Shown one piece after another: positions 9,900 to 17,068 of a DNA stretch of 64,000 nucleotides; position 1 is the first letter of the stretch; every line of letters starts with the position of its first letter. A program made the translations under genes and the position numbers. The stretch lies in assembly GCF_003790525.1 (NCBI RefSeq), contig NZ_CP033635.1; one strand, written 5' to 3'. The stretch comes from Escherichia coli (lineage in GTDB: Bacteria; Pseudomonadota; Gammaproteobacteria; Enterobacterales; Enterobacteriaceae). Below the pieces are notes generated by a model. The model was not told the DNA's origin. It ran no database searches and saw nothing but the letters and a program-made list of their open reading frames with translations.

Positions 9900-9931
9900 T
9901 GTTTTTATTTATTCAATGAATTTATATTTCG

Positions 9932-9959
9932 TTGAATAGATAACATTTACCTGAATATT
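9932..9959 (+). promoter_or_regulatory. Putative sigma70 promoter of the PTS island operon (-35 TTGAAT, -10 AATATT, 16-bp spacer)
   Basis: Hexamer match read by eye in the AT-rich region upstream of the RAT/terminator leader; weak evidence. Confidence 0.25.
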
Positions 9960-9996
9960 AGACGCTGGTTTTGTGACTGATGTCGGATATTTGAAT

Positions 9997-10019
9997 GTCG
10001 GCTTGAAAAATAAGCCGAC
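9997..10019 (+). terminator. Hairpin gtcggctt-gaaaaat-aagccgac downstream of amiC (possible amiC terminator)
   Basis: 8-bp perfect stem seen in sequence; no strong U-tract follows. Confidence 0.3.
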
Positions 10020-10071
10020 CATCTCTTTAATTAAGCACAATTCCGTGTAATGTATACGCATTAGTTAATCA

Positions 10072-10099
10072 TCTTGTAACTGTTAAATCAGGCAAGGCA
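10072..10099 (+). promoter_or_regulatory. RAT-like element (ribonucleic antiterminator target) overlapping the 5' arm of the leader terminator
   Basis: cttgtaactgttaaatcaggcaaggca resembles the BglG/SacY RAT consensus as I recall it (TTGTTACTG..AAAGCAGGCAA); overlaps the terminator stem directly upstream of a PRD antiterminator gene. Confidence 0.5.
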
Positions 10100-10145
10100 A
10101 TGTTTGAAGTAATCATTACTTCTGACGTGCCTTGCCTTTTTTTTT
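10090..10145 (+). terminator. Rho-independent terminator in operon leader (10-bp stem aggcaaggca/tgccttgcct with inner stem gaagtaat/attacttc, then T9)
   Basis: Perfect inverted repeat followed by 9 T residues, ending 11 nt before the antiterminator ATG. Confidence 0.6.
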
Positions 10146-10156
10146 GGAGCCATGAA

Positions 10157-10981
10157 ATGATCATCGAAAAAGTCATGAACAATAATTGTGTACAGGCATC
10201 GATGAATGGACAGGAGGTTATCATTTCTGGGCCTGGCGTCGGTTACAACAAAAAATATGGAATGTCGGTCCCTGAGCATCCGGCTAACCGGATTTTTTAT
10301 GTCAGAAATGAACAAAAAAATAAACTCTACAAATTGATTGAACATGTGGATATTGAGTATGTTTTTGTTGCCGAAAAAATAGTGCAATATGCGGAGAACA
10401 ATCTCGAAAAAAATCTCAATCCATCGCTACTATTGATTCTTGCTGATCACATTTCGAATGCAATATCCCGAGTCGCTTCAGGCATACAAATTAATAATGT
10501 TTTCCTTGATGAAATCAAAGCGTTGTACAAAGCAGAGTATGCGATAAGTCGCGATGCATTAACTATCATTAATGAGCAATTCAGCGTTCAACTTCCTGAT
10601 GATGAGATTGGTTTTATAGCATTGCATATTTTAAATAATTATGAAAATTCAGTTGATTATGAATCAGTACGGATTATTGAGTTGTCGCAAATAATCACGG
10701 GGCTTATTGAAGTTGTTTATAACAGAAAGGTGGACAGAAGTTCATTTAATTATTCCAGGTTCATGATACACCTTAAATATTTTTCAAGTCGCGTATTATG
10801 TAATGAAAAGATAAAACAAAAAGATATTGGTGACATCTATGAGCAGTTTCTTGAGAAAGACATCCTGTTACAGCGCGCAATTCATGAAATTGAACGGTAT
10901 CTGTATGCCACTTTTAAATATGAATTAATTTTAGAAGAAAAACTATATCTCTCAATTCGTACCAAAGTATTAATGGACTAA
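10157..10981 (+). CDS. BglG/LicT-family PRD-domain transcription antiterminator
   Basis: 275 aa from ATG 10157 (MIIEKVMNNNCV..., GGAG 7 nt upstream); N-terminal CAT RNA-binding motif KVxNNN and PRD-like segments; the ORF-track start 10100 lies inside the terminator hairpin. Confidence 0.8.
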   Translation: MIIEKVMNNNCVQASMNGQEVIISGPGVGYNKKYGMSVPEHPANRIFYVRNEQKNKLYKLIEHVDIEYVFVAEKIVQYAENNLEKNLNPSLLLILADHISNAISRVASGIQINNVFLDEIKALYKAEYAISRDALTIINEQFSVQLPDDEIGFIALHILNNYENSVDYESVRIIELSQIITGLIEVVYNRKVDRSSFNYSRFMIHLKYFSSRVLCNEKIKQKDIGDIYEQFLEKDILLQRAIHEIERYLYATFKYELILEEKLYLSIRTKVLMD

Positions 10982-11012
10982 TTATATATAACATTTATAT
11001 GAGATAACCCAC

Positions 11013-12593
11013 ATGAAACAAAAGAAAGCCTGGAGTTTTTTTCAGAGCCTGGGAAAGGCATTCATGTATCCCATTGCTCTGCTAAGTGTATGTGGCATGA
11101 TGCTAGGGCTGGGAAGTGGTTTAGCCAGTGATGATATGGCAAAGTTAATTCCATTTCTGGCTATTCCAATAATTAAAACCATACTTGATTTCATTGTTAG
11201 TCTTGGTTTGTTTGCCTTTGTTAATTTACCTGTATTGTTTGCGATAGCGATTCCCTTAGGATTATTAAAAGATAAAGAGGATAAAGCCTATGGTGCTTTT
11301 TCTGGCTTAATTGGTTTTATGGCGATGCATCTGGGAACGAACTTTTATCTTAAACAGCACGACTTATTGGTCGCTGCTGACCAAATGTCGACACATGGGC
11401 AAACCATCATTCTGGGGATCCAGTCCTACAATACCAGCGTGTTAGGGGGAATTGTTGCTGGGTTATTAGTCGCCAGCATGTATAAAAAGATCGTTAATTT
11501 ACGCATTCCTGAATCATTAGGTTTTTATAGCGGCCCACGTCTGGTGCCTATCATTACACTGATTGTGATGAGTGGATTTGGTCTGATCATCCCTTTTATC
11601 TGGCCGCCGTTTTTCAATCTTTTCATGCTCATTGGCCACTGGATTTCAACTTCCGGTCCTGTTGGCTATTTTTTCTATGCAGTCGCCGAACGCGTGACGA
11701 TACCTTTTGGTTTAAATCACCTGGTGACGTCAGTTTTCCGCTTTACCCCCATCGGCGGATCGGCAGTGATCGGCGGCGAAGAGTATTATGGCACCCTGAA
11801 CATGTTTATGGCGTACGTCAAAGAGAATGCGGTCATTCCGCTGGATTTGGCGGGGAAAATGGAACAGGGCAAACTGATGATTCAGTATGGTCTGGCTGGT
11901 GCCGCGCTGGCGATGTATCGCACTGCTCATGCTCAAAACAGAAAAGCTATCAAAGCATTGCTTATTTCCGGGGTGCTTACAGTCATTATTGGCGGCGTCA
12001 GCGAACCGATTGAGTTTCTGTTCTTATTTGTCAGTCCACTGCTGTTTGTCTTCCATGCATTTATGAATGGATTCGCCAACATGGTCTTGCCATATATGGG
12101 CGTGAAGATGGGATTTACTGGCGATCTGATTCAATTTATTAGCTTTGGCGTATTGCGTGGCACAAGAACAGGTTGGCCAATAGCGGTGTGTGTCGAAGTG
12201 GCCTATTTCTTTATTTATTACTTTGTGTTCCGTTGGACTATTCTCAAATTTAACCTGATGACGGTAGGCCGTGAAGAGTCCAGTCCTGTCACGCTGAACG
12301 CTCATGAGGATACGGCTATAGCGGATATCCCAACTCCTGATAAATCAGAGCTGCAAGCGGCGGAGCAGATGGTTAAGGCACTTGGTGGTAAAGAGAATAT
12401 TAAGTCACTGGATAATTGCGTAACTCGTTTACGTTTAACAATCGCAGATATGGGATTGCTTGACGAGGCTGCAATAAAAAGAGCCGGCGGAATTGCGGTT
12501 GTTAAACTTGATCAAAATACCCTACAAGTCATTATCGGTACTAAAGTCATCGCCTTGCGTCGGGATATGGATAACTACATGGGGATATGCTGA
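11013..12593 (+). CDS. PTS glucose/glucoside-family EIICB permease (no EIIA domain)
   Basis: 526 aa polytopic membrane protein with C-terminal EIIB motif NCVTRLRL; similar in architecture to MalX/PtsG-type EIICB. Confidence 0.85.
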   Translation: MKQKKAWSFFQSLGKAFMYPIALLSVCGMMLGLGSGLASDDMAKLIPFLAIPIIKTILDFIVSLGLFAFVNLPVLFAIAIPLGLLKDKEDKAYGAFSGLIGFMAMHLGTNFYLKQHDLLVAADQMSTHGQTIILGIQSYNTSVLGGIVAGLLVASMYKKIVNLRIPESLGFYSGPRLVPIITLIVMSGFGLIIPFIWPPFFNLFMLIGHWISTSGPVGYFFYAVAERVTIPFGLNHLVTSVFRFTPIGGSAVIGGEEYYGTLNMFMAYVKENAVIPLDLAGKMEQGKLMIQYGLAGAALAMYRTAHAQNRKAIKALLISGVLTVIIGGVSEPIEFLFLFVSPLLFVFHAFMNGFANMVLPYMGVKMGFTGDLIQFISFGVLRGTRTGWPIAVCVEVAYFFIYYFVFRWTILKFNLMTVGREESSPVTLNAHEDTAIADIPTPDKSELQAAEQMVKALGGKENIKSLDNCVTRLRLTIADMGLLDEAAIKRAGGIAVVKLDQNTLQVIIGTKVIALRRDMDNYMGIC

Positions 12594-13768
12594 TGGATGT
12601 TTTTAATACTCCTATTTCCCGCAAAGGAACATATTGTACCCAATGGGACTTTTGCGAGGACAGATTTGGTGTAAAAGATGTATTACCATTCTCTATTTCA
12701 GATATGGATCTTCCGATACCAGACGCTATCACCAGAGCATTAAAAAAACGTCTGGAACACCCGATTTTAGGGTACAGCCGTTGGCAGCATGATGACTATC
12801 TGAATGCGATAGTCAATTGGTATCATCAACAATATAAAACTGAAATCAAACCAGAATGGATCACCTATAGCCCAAGCGTGATGTACTCCATTGCTAAAGC
12901 AATAGAGTTATTGACATCGCATGGTGATAATATTCTCGTTTTTACACCTGTCTATAATGCATTTTTTGATATAATTAAACATAGCGAGAGAAATATTCTG
13001 ACAGCCTCTTTGATTATAAAAAATGAGGGGGGCTACGCTATCAATTGGCAAGATTTTGATCTTAAGATTCAAAGCGCAAAGATGGTGTTATTATGTAATC
13101 CTCATAACCCGACAGGAACAGTCTGGTCGGAAGAAGAACTGCATAAAATCGCTGCAAGCTGTACAAGGCATAATGTCTGGTTATGTTCAGATGAAATCCA
13201 TAGTGATTTTGTTTTTAATCGTAGCTTTACATCCGCGCTTAAAATAAAAAAAGAAAAAGTAGTAGTATTTAACTCGATATCGAAAACATTTAATGTTCCT
13301 GCACTAACAGGATCGTATATGATTTCAACTGACGATAATTTTAATCATAAGTTCAGAACGATATCGAGGTATCGCGATTTTGTAAACTCCCCATCAGTAC
13401 TGAATATAATTGCAACTATTATTGCCTATAACGAATGTGAGGGATGGTTAAAGTCATTAAAGGCACATATTGCCTCTAACATTCAATTCACCCAGCAGTA
13501 TCTGAACGAAAACACTCCAGAATTGATCGTAAGGCCAGCTGATGGTTGCTATTTTTCGTGGATAGATTGCTCTGCTATTGGTTATCCCTTTGATGAATTC
13601 TACAGTCGATTAATTCATGAAGGCAAAGTGGGCATTATGGCGGGGAATGTCTATGGAACGGAGGGGGAGGGCTACCTTCGTCTGAACCTGGCCTGCGGTC
13701 GAGAAAAATTATATATGGGGCTTACGCGTCTTGCGAGTGTAATTAAAAATATTAATCAAGGAAAATAA
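12587..13768 (+). CDS. MalY/PatB-family PLP-dependent aminotransferase / C-S beta-lyase
   Basis: 393 aa; N-terminus (TYCTQWDF..LPFSISDMDLP) parallels E. coli MalY (GTWCTQWDY..LPFTISDMDF); overlaps the EIICB stop by 7 nt. Confidence 0.8.
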   Translation: MLMDVFNTPISRKGTYCTQWDFCEDRFGVKDVLPFSISDMDLPIPDAITRALKKRLEHPILGYSRWQHDDYLNAIVNWYHQQYKTEIKPEWITYSPSVMYSIAKAIELLTSHGDNILVFTPVYNAFFDIIKHSERNILTASLIIKNEGGYAINWQDFDLKIQSAKMVLLCNPHNPTGTVWSEEELHKIAASCTRHNVWLCSDEIHSDFVFNRSFTSALKIKKEKVVVFNSISKTFNVPALTGSYMISTDDNFNHKFRTISRYRDFVNSPSVLNIIATIIAYNECEGWLKSLKAHIASNIQFTQQYLNENTPELIVRPADGCYFSWIDCSAIGYPFDEFYSRLIHEGKVGIMAGNVYGTEGEGYLRLNLACGREKLYMGLTRLASVIKNINQGK

Positions 13769-13770
13769 AA

Positions 13771-14367
13771 ATGAACAGCACGGATCTTATCCATCTCATT
13801 AAACATTTTATGCGTAACGAACATAAAGCAGTTGAAGAAGTTATTGATTCCCCCCTTTCGGAGGTCGCAAATTTAATTAAAGTATTACAGTCTTGTCAGG
13901 GGAAAGTTGTTTTTATTGGTGTCGGTAAGTCCGGTATTATTGCCCGAAAACTCGCCGCAACATTTGCCAGCACTGGAACTCCCTCGTTTTTTGTTCACGG
14001 TACGGAAGCGGTACACGGCGACCTTGGAATGGTGGCGAAAGACGATGTTGTTATTCTTATTTCAAACAGTGGTGAGACGGCGGAAATCCTGGCGACACTG
14101 CCTAGTCTGAAAAAAATGGGTAATTATTTGATCTCTTTTACACGCAGTCATCACTCATCGCTTGCGATAAGTTGTGATTTATCCGTTGAAATTCCCGTAA
14201 AAAGTGAGGCGGATAATTTAGGTTTAGCGCCGTCATGCTCATCAACAGTCGTTCTGGTTGTTGGTGATGCGGTGGCGCTTGCGCTCTCCGAATTGAAAAA
14301 GTTTACTCGTGCTGATTTCGGCTTATATCATCCAGGAGGTGCGCTCGGTATTAAAGCAAACTCATAA
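13771..14367 (+). CDS. SIS-domain sugar-phosphate isomerase (single SIS domain, KdsD/GutQ-like)
   Basis: 198 aa with GVGKSGIIARKLAATFASTGTPSFFVH, the SIS phosphosugar-binding motif. Confidence 0.75.
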   Translation: MNSTDLIHLIKHFMRNEHKAVEEVIDSPLSEVANLIKVLQSCQGKVVFIGVGKSGIIARKLAATFASTGTPSFFVHGTEAVHGDLGMVAKDDVVILISNSGETAEILATLPSLKKMGNYLISFTRSHHSSLAISCDLSVEIPVKSEADNLGLAPSCSSTVVLVVGDAVALALSELKKFTRADFGLYHPGGALGIKANS

Positions 14368-14429
14368 TTTCAAAATATAAATACAGTAACCGGTCACGCC
14401 ATCTTTTGGGGTGGCGTTCTTTGAAGTGA

Positions 14430-15386
14430 GTGTCAGCTATGAAAAATGTTCTGGTCACCGTCCCCAGCTTTTCAGCACGCTGTGTTTCCGCCAGCAAGTT
14501 GCTAAGAGAGAATAATTTTAATCTTATTATTAAGAATAATGTGGAGCATCTGCTTAAATCAGAATCCACTGCATTACGAGAATCTATTTGCGCGGTCATC
14601 GCCGGAAAAGATTGTTATCAGGCGGACACGCTATCATTGCTGTCTGGTGTGAAAATAATATCGAGATTCGGGACGGGGATAGACAATATTGATCTTCGTG
14701 CGGCACAGCAATCCGGTATTGTTGTCAATAATGCGGTTGGGATTAATTCAAATGCGGTTGCGGAATTTATCATTGGACTTATCTTCGCGAGCATGAGAAA
14801 TATCCCCGGTAGCTATCATGCGATGCAAAATGGTTATTGGGGCGAGTCGCATGGCTGCGAGTTACAAGGTAAACGTATTGGCCTGCTTGGCTACGGCAAT
14901 ATTGGCAAAACACTGGCGAAAAGGTTATCTGGTTTTGATGTTGAGCTTTTAGCTTTTGACAAACAACCCGATTTCCAGGCCGCAGGCAAAGATGGAGTTC
15001 AGTTCGTATCAATTGAAGATATCTTTATGCAGTCTCATGTCATCATCGTTCTTTTGCCATTTTCTCCGGAGCTGGAGAACTTCATTAGTCATAAATATTT
15101 GTCGATGATGCGCAATGGTGCTCTGATCATCAACGCCGCAAGGGGAAAGTTGCTGGATGAGGGTGCTTTACTTCAGGTAATTGAAGAACGAAATGTTTTT
15201 GCAGCACTGGATGTGTTTAGCTCTGAACCGCTAGCGCAATTTAGCCCATTGCTACATGCCAAGAATATCATTACAACGCCGCATATTGCGGCCGCCACCG
15301 TTGAGTCATACCAGCAAACCGGGATATACGTTGCCCAGTCGATAATTGATTACTTCGCAGGAAGGGAGATAAAAAACGTGCTGTGA
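14430..15386 (+). CDS. D-isomer-specific 2-hydroxyacid dehydrogenase family protein (NAD-binding)
   Basis: 318 aa; Rossmann GxGxxG (LLGYGNIGK) and catalytic-domain motifs typical of the SerA/PdxB/GhrA family. Confidence 0.75.
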   Translation: MSAMKNVLVTVPSFSARCVSASKLLRENNFNLIIKNNVEHLLKSESTALRESICAVIAGKDCYQADTLSLLSGVKIISRFGTGIDNIDLRAAQQSGIVVNNAVGINSNAVAEFIIGLIFASMRNIPGSYHAMQNGYWGESHGCELQGKRIGLLGYGNIGKTLAKRLSGFDVELLAFDKQPDFQAAGKDGVQFVSIEDIFMQSHVIIVLLPFSPELENFISHKYLSMMRNGALIINAARGKLLDEGALLQVIEERNVFAALDVFSSEPLAQFSPLLHAKNIITTPHIAAATVESYQQTGIYVAQSIIDYFAGREIKNVL

Positions 15387-15410
15387 GTTCAGCTAAGGAA
15401 TATTTCAGGT

Positions 15411-15448
15411 ACAAAAAAACCGCAATTTGTGAAACACATTGCGGTTTA
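15411..15448 (-). terminator. Rho-independent terminator downstream of the tRNA-fMet cluster
   Basis: On the minus strand a hairpin accgcaatgtgtttcacaaattgcggt followed by TTTTTTT, directly 3' of the last tRNA. Confidence 0.6.
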
Positions 15449-15464
15449 TCAGCATCATAAGTGT

Positions 15465-15541
<77 letters not shown>

Positions 15542-15575
15542 TCACCGTACTGCTTTTACTTCATCAAATTTTGAT

Positions 15576-15652
<77 letters not shown>

Positions 15653-15685
15653 TCACCGTACTGCTTTACTTCATCAAATTTTAAT

Positions 15686-15762
<77 letters not shown>

Positions 15763-15970
15763 TCCGTGGATGCGCACTATACTCTGCTCGCGTTTTCATG
15801 CAACCTTTTTTTTACCCCGATCACGGATTTGGCATGATTTTGAACAAAAACAAATCACTAAAGCCTATTTTTTGTGCAAAATTTGCGTCGGGGAGAGGCT
15901 GCTCATTTCATTAAACGCGGCGGTTTGTTATCTTCGTTGCGCCTTATTTTTTAACCTGAAGAAGAGAACA

Positions 15971-17068
15971 ATGAAAGGACGTTGGGTAAAGTACCTTCTT
16001 ATGGGCACGGTTGTGGCAATGCTTGCCGCCTGCTCTTCCAAACCAACCGATCGCGGACAGCAATATAAAGACGGGAAATTTACCCAGCCTTTCTCTCTGG
16101 TGAACCAGCCAGATGCCGTTGGCGCGCCGATTAACGCCGGTGATTTTGCCGAGCAAATTAACCATATCCGTAATTCGTCACCGCGTCTGTATGGCAACCA
16201 GAGTAATGTTTATAACGCGGTGCAAGAGTGGCTGCGCGCAGGCGGTGATACCCGCAATATGCGCCAGTTCGGCATTGATGCCTGGCAGATGGAAGGTGCC
16301 GACAACTATGGTAACGTGCAGTTTACCGGTTATTACACGCCAGTAATTCAGGCGCGCCATACCCGCCAGGGCGAGTTTCAGTATCCGATTTACCGTATGC
16401 CGCCAAAACGTGGTCGTCTGCCGTCTCGTGCGGAGATCTACGCGGGGGCATTGAGCGATAAATACATCCTCGCTTACAGCAACTCTCTGATGGATAACTT
16501 CATTATGGATGTGCAGGGTAGTGGGTATATCGACTTTGGTGATGGCAGTCCGCTTAACTTTTTCAGCTATGCAGGGAAAAACGGTCATGCCTATCGCAGC
16601 ATTGGTAAGGTGCTGATCGACCGTGGCGAAGTGAAAAAAGAAGATATGTCGATGCAGGCGATTCGTCACTGGGGTGAAACACACAGTGAAGCCGAGGTTC
16701 GCGAGCTGCTGGAACAGAACCCGTCTTTCGTCTTCTTTAAACCGCAATCTTTTGCTCCGGTGAAAGGGGCAAGTGCGGTGCCGCTGGTTGGTCGCGCTTC
16801 AGTTGCGTCCGATCGTTCCATTATCCCGCCTGGTACAACCTTACTGGCAGAAGTGCCGCTGCTGGATAATAACGGCAAATTTAACGGTCAGTACGAACTA
16901 CGGCTGATGGTGGCGTTGGATGTCGGTGGTGCAATCAAAGGCCAACACTTCGATATTTATCAAGGTATCGGGCCGGAAGCCGGACACCGCGCAGGTTGGT
17001 ACAACCACTATGGACGTGTTTGGGTGCTGAAAACCGCCCCGGGCGCAGGTAACGTCTTTAGCGGCTGA
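15971..17068 (+). CDS. mltA: Membrane-bound lytic murein transglycosylase A (lipoprotein)
   Basis: 365 aa from MKGRWVKYLLMGTVVAMLAACSSK (lipobox LAAC); the ORF-track version starts at a TTG inside the tRNA and is rejected. Confidence 0.9.
   Translation: MKGRWVKYLLMGTVVAMLAACSSKPTDRGQQYKDGKFTQPFSLVNQPDAVGAPINAGDFAEQINHIRNSSPRLYGNQSNVYNAVQEWLRAGGDTRNMRQFGIDAWQMEGADNYGNVQFTGYYTPVIQARHTRQGEFQYPIYRMPPKRGRLPSRAEIYAGALSDKYILAYSNSLMDNFIMDVQGSGYIDFGDGSPLNFFSYAGKNGHAYRSIGKVLIDRGEVKKEDMSMQAIRHWGETHSEAEVRELLEQNPSFVFFKPQSFAPVKGASAVPLVGRASVASDRSIIPPGTTLLAEVPLLDNNGKFNGQYELRLMVALDVGGAIKGQHFDIYQGIGPEAGHRAGWYNHYGRVWVLKTAPGAGNVFSG

What the first reader, a model, noticed from the sequence alone, without database searches (positions are those of the whole stretch)
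11013..13768. Second MalX/MalY-like pair (EIICB lacking EIIA plus PLP C-S lyase) with translational overlap
The EIICB permease and the MalY-family enzyme overlap by 7 nt and mirror the K-12 malX-malY pair in architecture. In K-12, MalY has beta-C-S lyase activity and also represses the maltose regulon by binding MalT. A horizontally acquired paralogue raises the question of whether it is a catabolic enzyme for the island substrate or a regulatory moonlighter. The EIICB has no EIIA domain, so it must depend on a trans-acting EIIA (for example Crr).
Basis: inference. Interest (0 to 1): 0.4.

Follow-up and report, generated by a model that had tools for sequence, protein, structure and literature searches.

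The report
Known island PTS permease–lyase operon
This is the already described five-gene sugar-uptake operon of the E. coli tRNA-Met (metV) island (CFT073 c3405–c3410), a foreign relative of the core malX–malY pair whose lyase most likely helps break down the imported sugar compound rather than regulate maltose genes, and whose substrate is still unknown.

Summary
The two ORFs exist. One is a Glc-family PTS EIICB with no EIIA domain (11013–12593). The other is a PatB/MalY-family PLP C-S lyase with an intact PLP lysine. The 7-nt overlap comes from taking the longest ORF. The conserved start is the ATG of TGATG at 12593, which gives a 1-nt overlap. K-12 malX and malY do not overlap; they are 9 nt apart.

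The pair belongs to a five-gene, low-GC block between amiC and three tRNA-Met genes: RAT/terminator leader, BglG/LicT-type antiterminator, EIICB, lyase, short SIS isomerase and a PGDH-like dehydrogenase. The window is 100% identical to E. coli SMS-3-5. The block is the published CFT073 c3405–c3410 operon of PAI-metV and is present in about 31% of complete E. coli genomes.

Its closest non-enterobacterial counterpart is the C. difficile CD3027–CD3031 operon. That operon has the same gene order but carries its own EIIA-Glc gene, which supports dependence on Crr in E. coli.

The MalT-binding patch of MalY is not conserved (none of the eight contact residues identical), so MalT moonlighting is unlikely. 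All five genes are under purifying selection. Relatives of this lyase subfamily almost always sit next to PTS permeases, which favours a catabolic role.

The locus is already known; its substrate is not.

The parts
10073..10099 (+). RAT-like antiterminator binding site (CTTGTAACTGTTAAATCAGGCAAGGCA), overlapping the 5' arm of the terminator
   Evidence: Its core, TGT(A/T)ACTG ... CA(G)GCA, is shared with the four C. difficile and three Solobacterium modules of homologous operons. It lies directly upstream of the antiterminator gene.
10090..10146 (+). Intrinsic terminator of the operon leader (stem AGGCAAGGCA...TGCCTTGCCT followed by a T9 run)
   Evidence: Folding the 85-nt leader 10066-10150 that contains it gives -28.8 kcal/mol, z = -4.8, with 0 of 200 shuffles folding as well. 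Citrobacter has a compensatory change in the stem, GGCAAGACA...TGTCTTGCC.
10157..10981 (+). BglG/LicT-family transcription antiterminator (CAT RNA-binding domain plus PRD), 274 aa
   Evidence: Pfam CAT_RBD and PRD. Aligns to NCBIfam LicT over its full length at 225 bits, below the equivalog cutoff of 300. The RefSeq start is 10157. The longer ORF from 10100 runs across the terminator and is a spurious extension.
11013..12593 (+). PTS Glc-family EIICB permease, MalX-like, with no EIIA domain
   Evidence: Pfam EIIC plus EIIB. Best NCBIfam model is malX TIGR02004 at 538.8 bits, below the cutoff of 632.2. It is 42% identical to K-12 MalX and 68% identical to the C. difficile operon EIICB. C469 is the EIIB phospho-cysteine.
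12593..13768 (+). PatB/MalY-family PLP-dependent C-S (beta) lyase, 391 aa; the start shares one base with the EIICB stop codon (TGATG)
   Evidence: TIGR04350 at 368.8 bits, above the cutoff of 340. MalY 1D2F at E = 6e-85. K231 is the PLP lysine and the catalytic positions examined are conserved. Conserved start codon. dN/dS = 0.13.
13771..14367 (+). Short single-SIS-domain sugar-phosphate isomerase (KpsF/GutQ type, without CBS domains); the c3406 homologue
   Evidence: Pfam SIS. KdsD and KpsF models match only their SIS parts. PDB 5UQI/5VHU 'phosphosugar isomerase', 198 aa, scores 408.8 bits over residues 1-198.
14439..15386 (+). D-2-hydroxyacid dehydrogenase of the short phosphoglycerate-dehydrogenase type, 315 aa
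   Evidence: Pfam 2-Hacid_dh and 2-Hacid_dh_C. The nearest solved structures are short PGDHs (1WWK, 167 bits). It is present in the E. coli and Citrobacter blocks and absent from the Enterobacter sp. ENT03, C. difficile and Solobacterium blocks.
15465..15762 (-). Three tRNA-Met genes (the metZWV position); the island abuts the 3' end of the first one
   Evidence: ARAGORN. The same genes flank the block in SMS-3-5 and CFT073 annotation.

Best explanation
The pair is the core of a horizontally acquired, self-regulated PTS catabolic operon. It is the SMS-3-5 copy of CFT073 c3405-c3410 in the tRNA-Met (metV) island.

Proposed working, with each step marked:
1. Transcription starts upstream of 10073 and stops at the leader terminator unless the BglG/LicT-type antiterminator binds the overlapping RAT. 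The element is shown; its function is inferred from the family.
2. The antiterminator is in turn controlled by phosphorylation through the EIICB and HPr (inferred).
3. The EIICB takes up an unidentified glucoside-like compound and phosphorylates it, receiving phosphate from the chromosomal EIIA-Glc, Crr (inferred). The basis is that it has no EIIA domain and that the Firmicute operons carry a separate Crr-like EIIA gene.
4. The translationally coupled PatB/MalY-type lyase acts as a catabolic PLP enzyme on the imported, phosphorylated compound or a derivative. The most likely reaction is a beta-elimination that releases a sugar phosphate plus a 2-oxo acid and ammonia (inferred).
5. The SIS isomerase and the 2-hydroxyacid dehydrogenase process these products (inferred).

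The lyase is not expected to bind MalT.
For: Identity with the known operon:
- The window is 100% identical to SMS-3-5.
- The same five genes sit at the same amiC-proximal position in CFT073 at about 90-100% nucleotide identity.
- Bryant et al. state that c3405-c3410 of PAI-CFT073-metV is retained in SMS-3-5 (PMC2831201).

Operon logic:
- The five genes are co-oriented, with gaps of 31, -1, 2 and 71 nt.
- A single RAT plus terminator leader is present, with a compensatory stem change in Citrobacter.

EIIA in trans:
- There is no EIIA domain.
- C. difficile and Solobacterium homologous operons encode a separate PF00358 EIIA; the C. difficile EIIA is 41% identical to Crr.

Lyase as a functional enzyme:
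- The PLP lysine and the catalytic positions examined are intact.
- dN/dS is 0.13, and 0.02-0.07 for the neighbouring genes.
- The C. difficile orthologue, MalY-CD3029, has cysteine desulfhydrase activity in vitro (PMC6143707 and PMC5767170, both citing Dubois 2016).

Catabolic coupling to PTS:
- Among the 80 best genomic relatives, 65 lyase genes lie directly downstream of a MalX-like EIICB gene.
- In at least 12 of the other 15, Fru-type or Lac-type PTS genes lie nearby, often with M20, M24 or M42 peptidases; single loci also carry a mannose-6-P isomerase or an alanine dehydrogenase.
- No glycoside hydrolase turned up among the operon genes characterised in these loci. The lyase occupies the position that a phospho-glycosidase or etherase holds in the bgl, asc, tre, glv and mur operons (analogy from established knowledge).

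Not a MalT binder:
- None of the eight MalT-contact residues is identical.
Against: - No substrate is known, and nothing here shows that the lyase touches the PTS product.
- The only documented activities in this family are generic C-S lyase reactions on cysteine or cystathionine.
- From memory (Mosberg 2011; the paper is not held in the library), the SIS protein has arabinose-5-phosphate isomerase activity in vitro. That does not follow obviously from a hexose-type PTS substrate.
- The EIICB scores below the NCBIfam malX cutoff, so its specificity cannot be transferred from MalX.
- Dependence on Crr is inferred, not shown.
- No clear sigma-70 promoter was found upstream of the RAT.
Confidence: 0.62

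Rival explanations
1. The lyase is a MalY-like moonlighter that sequesters MalT (or another STAND-type regulator) and so links the island PTS to maltose-regulon control.
For: It belongs to the same subfamily as MalY and shares the N-terminal GT(Y/W)CTQWD...DRFG signature and the overall fold family. Like malY, it sits downstream of a MalX-like permease gene.
Against: The MalT-contact residues A84, C181, D182, E185, S218, N219, A221 and R222 read E, E, E, H, L, K, K, K here. According to PMC10427625, two substitutions in this patch (D182C, S218V) are associated with loss of repression in V. furnissii MalY. The patch is already lost in Yersinia, Serratia, Vibrio and Aeromonas MalY, so MalT binding looks like a narrow Escherichia/Citrobacter trait. 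The closest relatives are from Firmicutes, and there the PTS-lyase pair is kept without a divergent MalI-type regulator gene.
Confidence: 0.04
2. The lyase is a general sulfur-amino-acid enzyme (cysteine desulfhydrase or cystathionine beta-lyase). It is co-expressed with the PTS but does not act on the PTS substrate, for example supplying pyruvate or H2S or detoxifying cysteine.
For: E. coli MalY and C. difficile MalY-CD3029 both show C-S lyase or cysteine desulfhydrase activity on ordinary sulfur amino acids. No other activity has been reported in the family. The lyase is the least constrained gene of the operon (dN/dS 0.13; 86% protein identity between the two E. coli alleles against 94-98% for the other four genes).
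Against: The lyase gene is physically and translationally coupled to PTS permease genes of three different PTS families across several phyla. That is hard to explain for a housekeeping sulfur enzyme. E. coli already has MetC, TnaA, CysK, CysM and MalY for such reactions (PMC5767170).
Confidence: 0.22
3. The operon's main output is arabinose 5-phosphate for Kdo or capsule synthesis through the SIS isomerase. On this view the permease-lyase pair is accessory or regulatory.
For: The SIS protein is KpsF/GutQ-like and matches the solved phosphosugar isomerase 5UQI. From memory, Mosberg et al. 2011 (title confirmed) showed arabinose-5-phosphate isomerase activity and complementation of a kdsD gutQ mutant.
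Against: The same EIICB-lyase-SIS block occurs in the Gram-positive C. difficile and Solobacterium; Gram-positives make no Kdo/LPS (established knowledge). E. coli already has KdsD and GutQ. The gene order and the antiterminator control are typical of catabolic PTS operons.
Confidence: 0.1

Closest known systems
E. coli CFT073 c3405-c3410 operon of PAI-metV (Lloyd 2009, Bryant 2009, Mosberg 2011)
   Same: Same five genes in the same order, at the same amiC-proximal site next to the tRNA-Met genes, at about 90-100% nucleotide identity. Bryant et al. explicitly list SMS-3-5 as a carrier. This is the same locus.
   Different: In CFT073 a roughly 27-kb type VI secretion cluster lies between the PTS block and the tRNA-Met genes. 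In this window the block abuts the tRNAs directly.
E. coli K-12 malI-malX-malY
   Same: An EIICB without EIIA followed by a PatB/MalY-subfamily lyase. The lyases share the CTQWD/DRFG signature and the catalytic residues. The natural substrate is unknown in both cases.
   Different: Only 42% and 36% protein identity. K-12 has a 9-nt gap instead of a stop/start overlap. K-12 has a divergent LacI-type repressor, MalI, instead of an antiterminator with RAT/terminator. K-12 has no SIS or dehydrogenase gene. The MalT-binding patch is absent here. The K-12 pair is a core gene pair, this one is accessory.
Clostridioides difficile CD3027-CD3031 PTS operon (malY-CD3029)
   Same: Antiterminator, EIICB, lyase and SIS in the same order. 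The EIICB and lyase ORFs overlap. RAT/terminator control. Protein identities are 68% (EIICB), 49% (lyase), 52% (SIS) and 38% (antiterminator). It also lies in a variable genome region.
   Different: C. difficile ends the operon with its own EIIA-Glc gene where E. coli has a dehydrogenase. It has four tandem RAT-terminator modules between the antiterminator and EIICB genes, whereas E. coli has one module upstream of the antiterminator gene.
BglG/SacY/LicT antiterminator-controlled PTS operons (bgl, sac, lic)
   Same: A CAT plus PRD regulator, a RAT overlapping an intrinsic terminator, and a Glc-family permease gene immediately downstream.
   Different: The enzyme partner is a PLP lyase rather than a phospho-beta-glucosidase or sucrase. 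The regulator scores below the LicT, GlcT and BglG equivalog cutoffs.

Membership tests
PatB/MalY family C-S lyase (TIGR04350; fold-type I PLP enzymes) | Whole-protein score above the curated family cutoff | tested here: met
   368.8 bits against a cutoff of 340. The next best model is an aminotransferase at 138 bits.
PatB/MalY family C-S lyase (TIGR04350; fold-type I PLP enzymes) | Schiff-base lysine and PLP-binding residues (MalY K233, D201, Y121, H204) | tested here: met
   All are conserved. K231 lies in 'NSISKTFNV'.
PatB/MalY family C-S lyase (TIGR04350; fold-type I PLP enzymes) | Beta C-S lyase activity | not testable with these tools
   Reported only for E. coli MalY and for the C. difficile orthologue CD3029.
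MalY as a MalT-binding repressor | MalT-contact surface patch (A84, C181, D182, E185, S218, N219, A221, R222) | tested here: not met
   The residues here are E, E, E, H, L, K, K, K; none is identical. The neighbouring T83 is kept.
MalY as a MalT-binding repressor | Physical binding to MalT and repression of mal genes | not testable with these tools
   Needs a pull-down and a reporter assay.
PTS Glc-family EIICB, MalX subfamily (TIGR02004 / PRK10110) | EIIC plus EIIB domains, a phosphorylatable EIIB cysteine, and no EIIA | tested here: met
   PF02378 at 14-353 and PF00367 at 452-484, with no EIIA hit. C469.
PTS Glc-family EIICB, MalX subfamily (TIGR02004 / PRK10110) | Score above the curated malX cutoff | tested here: not met
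   538.8 bits against 632.2, and 525.5 against 665. malX is the nearest model, but this is a separate lineage: 42% identical to MalX against 68% to the C. difficile EIICB.
BglG/SacY/LicT antitermination system | Regulator with a CAT RNA-binding domain and PRD | tested here: met
   PF03123 plus PF00874. Full-length alignment to the LicT model at 225 bits, below the equivalog cutoff of 300.
BglG/SacY/LicT antitermination system | RAT sequence overlapping an intrinsic terminator upstream of the regulated genes | tested here: met
   RAT at 10073-10099 overlaps the terminator at 10090-10146. Fold of the 85-nt leader 10066-10150: z = -4.8. The core is conserved over 10 modules from 4 taxa, with a compensatory change in Citrobacter.
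CFT073 c3405-c3410 operon (PAI-metV) | Same gene content, order and chromosomal position, with high DNA identity | tested here: met
Arabinose-5-phosphate isomerase without CBS domains (c3406 type) | A single KpsF/GutQ-type SIS domain of about 198 aa with no CBS pair | tested here: met
   The match is to the SIS part only of KdsD, KpsF and GutQ. It scores 408.8 bits over its full length against PDB 5UQI. The enzyme activity itself was not tested here.

The most novel reading that the evidence does not exclude
MalY-subfamily lyases (signature GT(Y/W)CTQWD...DRFG) may be the dedicated 'cleaving enzymes' of a widespread, uncharacterised class of PTS pathways for sugar-amino-acid or glycopeptide conjugates, for example O- or S-glycosyl serine, threonine or cysteine released from host or dietary glycoproteins.

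On this reading the PTS phosphorylates the sugar part, peptidases (M20, M24, M42) trim the peptide, and the lyase removes the amino acid by beta-elimination. That gives a sugar phosphate plus pyruvate and ammonia. The sugar phosphate would then be handled by a SIS or mannose-6-P isomerase, and the pyruvate by a 2-hydroxyacid or alanine dehydrogenase.

The E. coli island operon, the core malXY pair and the C. difficile CD3027-3031 operon would all be members. This would finally give MalX/MalY a natural substrate class.
Probability: 0.2. Interest if true: 0.65.

Novelty: already known. Interest (0 to 1): 0.3.

Why it matters
The operon is an accessory locus enriched in extraintestinal pathogenic E. 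coli. From memory, Lloyd 2009 and Mosberg 2011 report that deleting c3405-c3410 reduces CFT073 fitness in the mouse urinary tract. Knowing its substrate would identify a host-derived nutrient used during infection.

More generally, the natural substrate of MalX/MalY-type permease-lyase pairs has been unknown since the early 1990s. This analysis does not change the status of the locus. It does narrow the options: MalT moonlighting is unlikely, Crr dependence is likely, and the lyase is consistently partnered with PTS permeases across phyla. That suggests concrete compounds and assays to try.

Tried and rejected
- I looked for tRNA-derived direct repeats (att sites) flanking the block and found none.
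- I scanned for a sigma-70 promoter upstream of the RAT. There was no convincing + strand match between 9900 and 10070.
- I tried to read Mosberg 2011 (PMC3133213), Cech 2017 (PMC5553037) and Clausen 2000 (PMC305623). None is held. Statements taken from them are marked as from memory.
- I searched papers for c3405-c3410, for CD3027-CD3031 and for FrvX/YpdE/SgcX. No substrate has been reported.
- I tested whether the island-type (type B) lyases form a clean clade. The NJ tree groups them with Fusobacterium and Brachyspira lyases, but strict monophyly has only 13 of 50 bootstraps. The 'type B' class therefore rests mainly on operon content and on EIICB identity.
- I rejected the 10100 start of the antiterminator ORF because it runs over the terminator, and the 12587 start of the lyase because the codon is not conserved.
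- I did not run structure prediction. The tools return no coordinates, so active-site geometry could not have been examined.
Full report
**Observation**

The window has ORFs at 11013..12593 (526 aa) and 12587..13768 (393 aa) on the + strand.
- The first has PTS_EIIC (residues 14-353) and PTS_EIIB (452-484) domains and no EIIA domain. Its EIIB cysteine is C469. Its best NCBIfam model is malX, at 538.8 bits against a cutoff of 632.2.
- The second passes the PatB-family C-S lyase model (368.8 bits against 340). It aligns end to end with E. coli MalY (PDB 1D2F, E = 6e-85) at 36% identity, and the PLP lysine is present (K231 = MalY K233).

The reported 7-nt overlap is a property of the longest ORF only.
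- The ATG at 12587 is ATA in CFT073.
- The ATG inside TGATG at 12593 is conserved in this window, a second E. coli allele, Citrobacter and CFT073.
- That ATG has a GGGGA Shine-Dalgarno sequence 7 nt upstream and is the RefSeq start.

The conserved junction is therefore a 1-nt stop/start overlap, which still fits translational coupling. K-12 malX and malY are 9 nt apart and do not overlap.

**Context**

The pair sits in a co-oriented five-gene block between amiC and three tRNA-Met genes, which are followed by mltA. In order, the block contains:
1. a BglG/LicT-type antiterminator (10157-10981)
2. the EIICB
3. the lyase
4. a 198-aa single-SIS isomerase of the KpsF/GutQ type (13771-14367)
5. a short PGDH-like D-2-hydroxyacid dehydrogenase (14439-15386)

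GC is 31-46% across the block and 50-55% in the core genes on either side. The window is 100% identical to E. coli SMS-3-5. In 1683 of 5426 complete E. coli genomes, one place covers at least 80% of the 9900-15700 query, which is the block plus the tRNA-Met genes. The canonical malXY is in 5411 of 5426, so this really is a second pair in the strains that carry it.

**Identity with a published locus**

CFT073 has the same five genes next to amiC at about 90-100% nucleotide identity. A type VI secretion cluster is inserted between them and the tRNA-Met genes. Bryant et al. (PMC2831201) describe this set as c3405-c3410 within PAI-CFT073-metV, label it a 'PTS system, maltose/glucose specific', and list SMS-3-5 as a carrier.

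The SIS protein matches the solved 198-aa 'phosphosugar isomerase' 5UQI/5VHU at 408.8 bits. Mosberg et al. 2011 described c3406 as an arabinose-5-phosphate isomerase of this island; the title is confirmed, but the paper is not held, so details are from memory. The locus is therefore already known and partly characterised. Its substrate is not known; literature searches found none.

**Regulation**

Upstream of the antiterminator gene there is a RAT-like sequence (10073-10099) that overlaps a strong intrinsic terminator (10090-10146).
- Folding the 85-nt leader 10066-10150 gives -28.8 kcal/mol, z = -4.8, and none of 200 shuffles folds as well.
- Citrobacter has the same element with a compensatory stem change.
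- The RAT core is shared with four tandem modules in C. difficile and three in Solobacterium.

The operon is thus a conventional antiterminator-controlled PTS operon. The regulator gene itself lies behind the terminator. The 10100 ORF start is spurious because that ORF runs over the terminator.

**Relatives**

The lyase's nearest homologues are, in order:
- a second E. coli allele at 86-88% identity, at the same chromosomal site
- Citrobacter at 68-69%, with the same five genes at a different site
- C. difficile and Terrisporobacter at 48-50%

All are well above K-12 MalY at 36%.

The C. difficile locus reads antiterminator, EIICB, lyase (overlapping ORFs), SIS, EIIA-Glc. The operon makeup matches what the literature describes as CD3027-CD3031 with malY-CD3029, a demonstrated cysteine desulfhydrase.

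I scanned one genome per species and then ran tblastn with the operon proteins. This shows two lineages of EIICB-lyase pairs.
- Type A is MalI-MalX-MalY in Enterobacterales, Vibrionaceae and Aeromonas. MalX-like/MalY-like pairs without MalI also occur in Bacillus, Enterococcus, Lactococcus, Fusobacterium, Brachyspira and Streptomyces.
- Type B is antiterminator-EIICB-lyase-SIS in E. coli, Citrobacter, Enterobacter sp. ENT03, C. difficile and Solobacterium.

The type-B EIICB is 63-84% identical across these taxa but only about 42% identical to MalX. In an NJ tree the island lyase groups with the Firmicute, Fusobacterium and Brachyspira sequences, away from proteobacterial MalY. The island pair is therefore a xenologue, not a duplicate of malXY.

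**EIIA**

The Firmicute type-B operons encode a separate PF00358 EIIA. The C. difficile one is 41% identical to E. coli Crr. The enterobacterial blocks lack an EIIA gene. It remains an inference.

**MalT moonlighting**

The cryo-EM study of MalT-MalY (PMC10427625) lists the MalY contact residues as A84, C181, D182, E185, S218, N219, A221 and R222. It also notes that V. furnissii MalY, which carries D182C and S218V, does not repress. In the island lyase these positions read E, E, E, H, L, K, K, K. The patch is intact only in Citrobacter MalY and is already lost in Yersinia, Serratia, Vibrio and Aeromonas MalY. Binding to MalT is therefore unlikely.

**Is the lyase functional and catabolic?**

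- Between the two E. coli alleles, dN/dS is 0.13 for the lyase and 0.02-0.07 for the other four genes. All five are maintained by selection.
- Among the 80 best genomic relatives, 65 lyase genes follow a MalX-like EIICB gene.
- In at least 12 of the other 15 loci, Fru-type or Lac-type PTS genes lie nearby. M24, M42 or M20 peptidases are frequent neighbours, and single loci carry a mannose-6-P isomerase or an alanine dehydrogenase.
- No glycoside hydrolase turned up among the operon genes characterised in these loci.

By analogy with permease-plus-cleaving-enzyme pairs in the bgl, asc, tre, glv and mur operons (established knowledge), the lyase most likely processes the phosphorylated transport product. 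The recurring peptidases and pyruvate-handling enzymes suggest sugar-amino-acid conjugates as the substrate class. That is a hypothesis only.

**Verdict**

- MalX/MalY-like: yes.
- Horizontally acquired: yes.
- EIIA supplied in trans: likely.
- Regulatory moonlighting on MalT: disfavoured.

The locus is the known c3405-c3410 operon, so novelty is low. The open and interesting question is the substrate of this and the other PTS-linked MalY-type lyases.

Noticed in passing
L010 5974-6392 (C. difficile, between the antiterminator and EIICB genes): There are four tandem 104-nt copies (92% matches) of a complete RAT-plus-terminator module in series ahead of the EIICB gene. This is an unusual multi-stage antitermination leader. 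Solobacterium (L020) instead has three separate modules, one ahead of each of EIIA, the antiterminator and the EIICB.
   Followed up: partly
window 9900-15460 compared with L004 5306-10900 (second E. coli allele): Two deeply diverged alleles of the whole island sit at the same amiC/tRNA-Met site in E. coli. dS is 0.23-0.48, which from memory is far above typical E. coli core-gene divergence. The lyase is the fastest-evolving gene (86% protein identity against 94-98% for the other four genes). In allele 2 the lyase is 402 aa and overlaps the SIS gene by 32 nt. Some genomes carry fused lyase-SIS ORFs of 550-592 aa (P0002-P0005, P0009, P0010).
   Followed up: partly
L019, L034, L036, L079; L026, L048, L049, L055, L057, L059, L063, L085: Lyases with the MalY-type CTQWD signature that lack a MalX-like neighbour mostly sit in operons with Fru-type PTS genes (EIIA_2 plus EIIBC plus an FrvR-like regulator) or Lac-type PTS genes (EIIB plus EIIC). 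These operons also carry M20, M24 or M42 peptidases, an RDD membrane protein, a mannose-6-P isomerase or an alanine dehydrogenase. From memory, they resemble the cryptic frv, fry/ypd and sgc PTS-peptidase operons of E. coli K-12.
   Followed up: partly
L002 8024-34291 (CFT073) compared with window 15386-15465: CFT073 carries a complete type VI secretion cluster of about 27 kb between the PTS block and the tRNA-Met genes. In SMS-3-5 the PTS block abuts the tRNAs directly. PAI-metV is therefore modular, and the PTS block is the amiC-proximal module.
   Followed up: no
L007/L008 5559-10798 (Citrobacter freundii group): The same five-gene block, leader included, lies at a different chromosomal site, between an LTXXQ-domain gene and an RNase T gene. 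No tRNA gene or integrase turned up among the neighbouring genes called there. The block therefore moves as a unit. No att-like repeats flank it in E. coli either.
   Followed up: partly
window 15689-17068 and 10100-10981: Two longest-ORF artefacts. The mltA ORF from 15689 starts inside a tRNA-Met gene; the MltA model matches only from residue 95, which fits the shorter RefSeq mltA. The antiterminator ORF from 10100 runs across its own leader terminator.
   Followed up: yes
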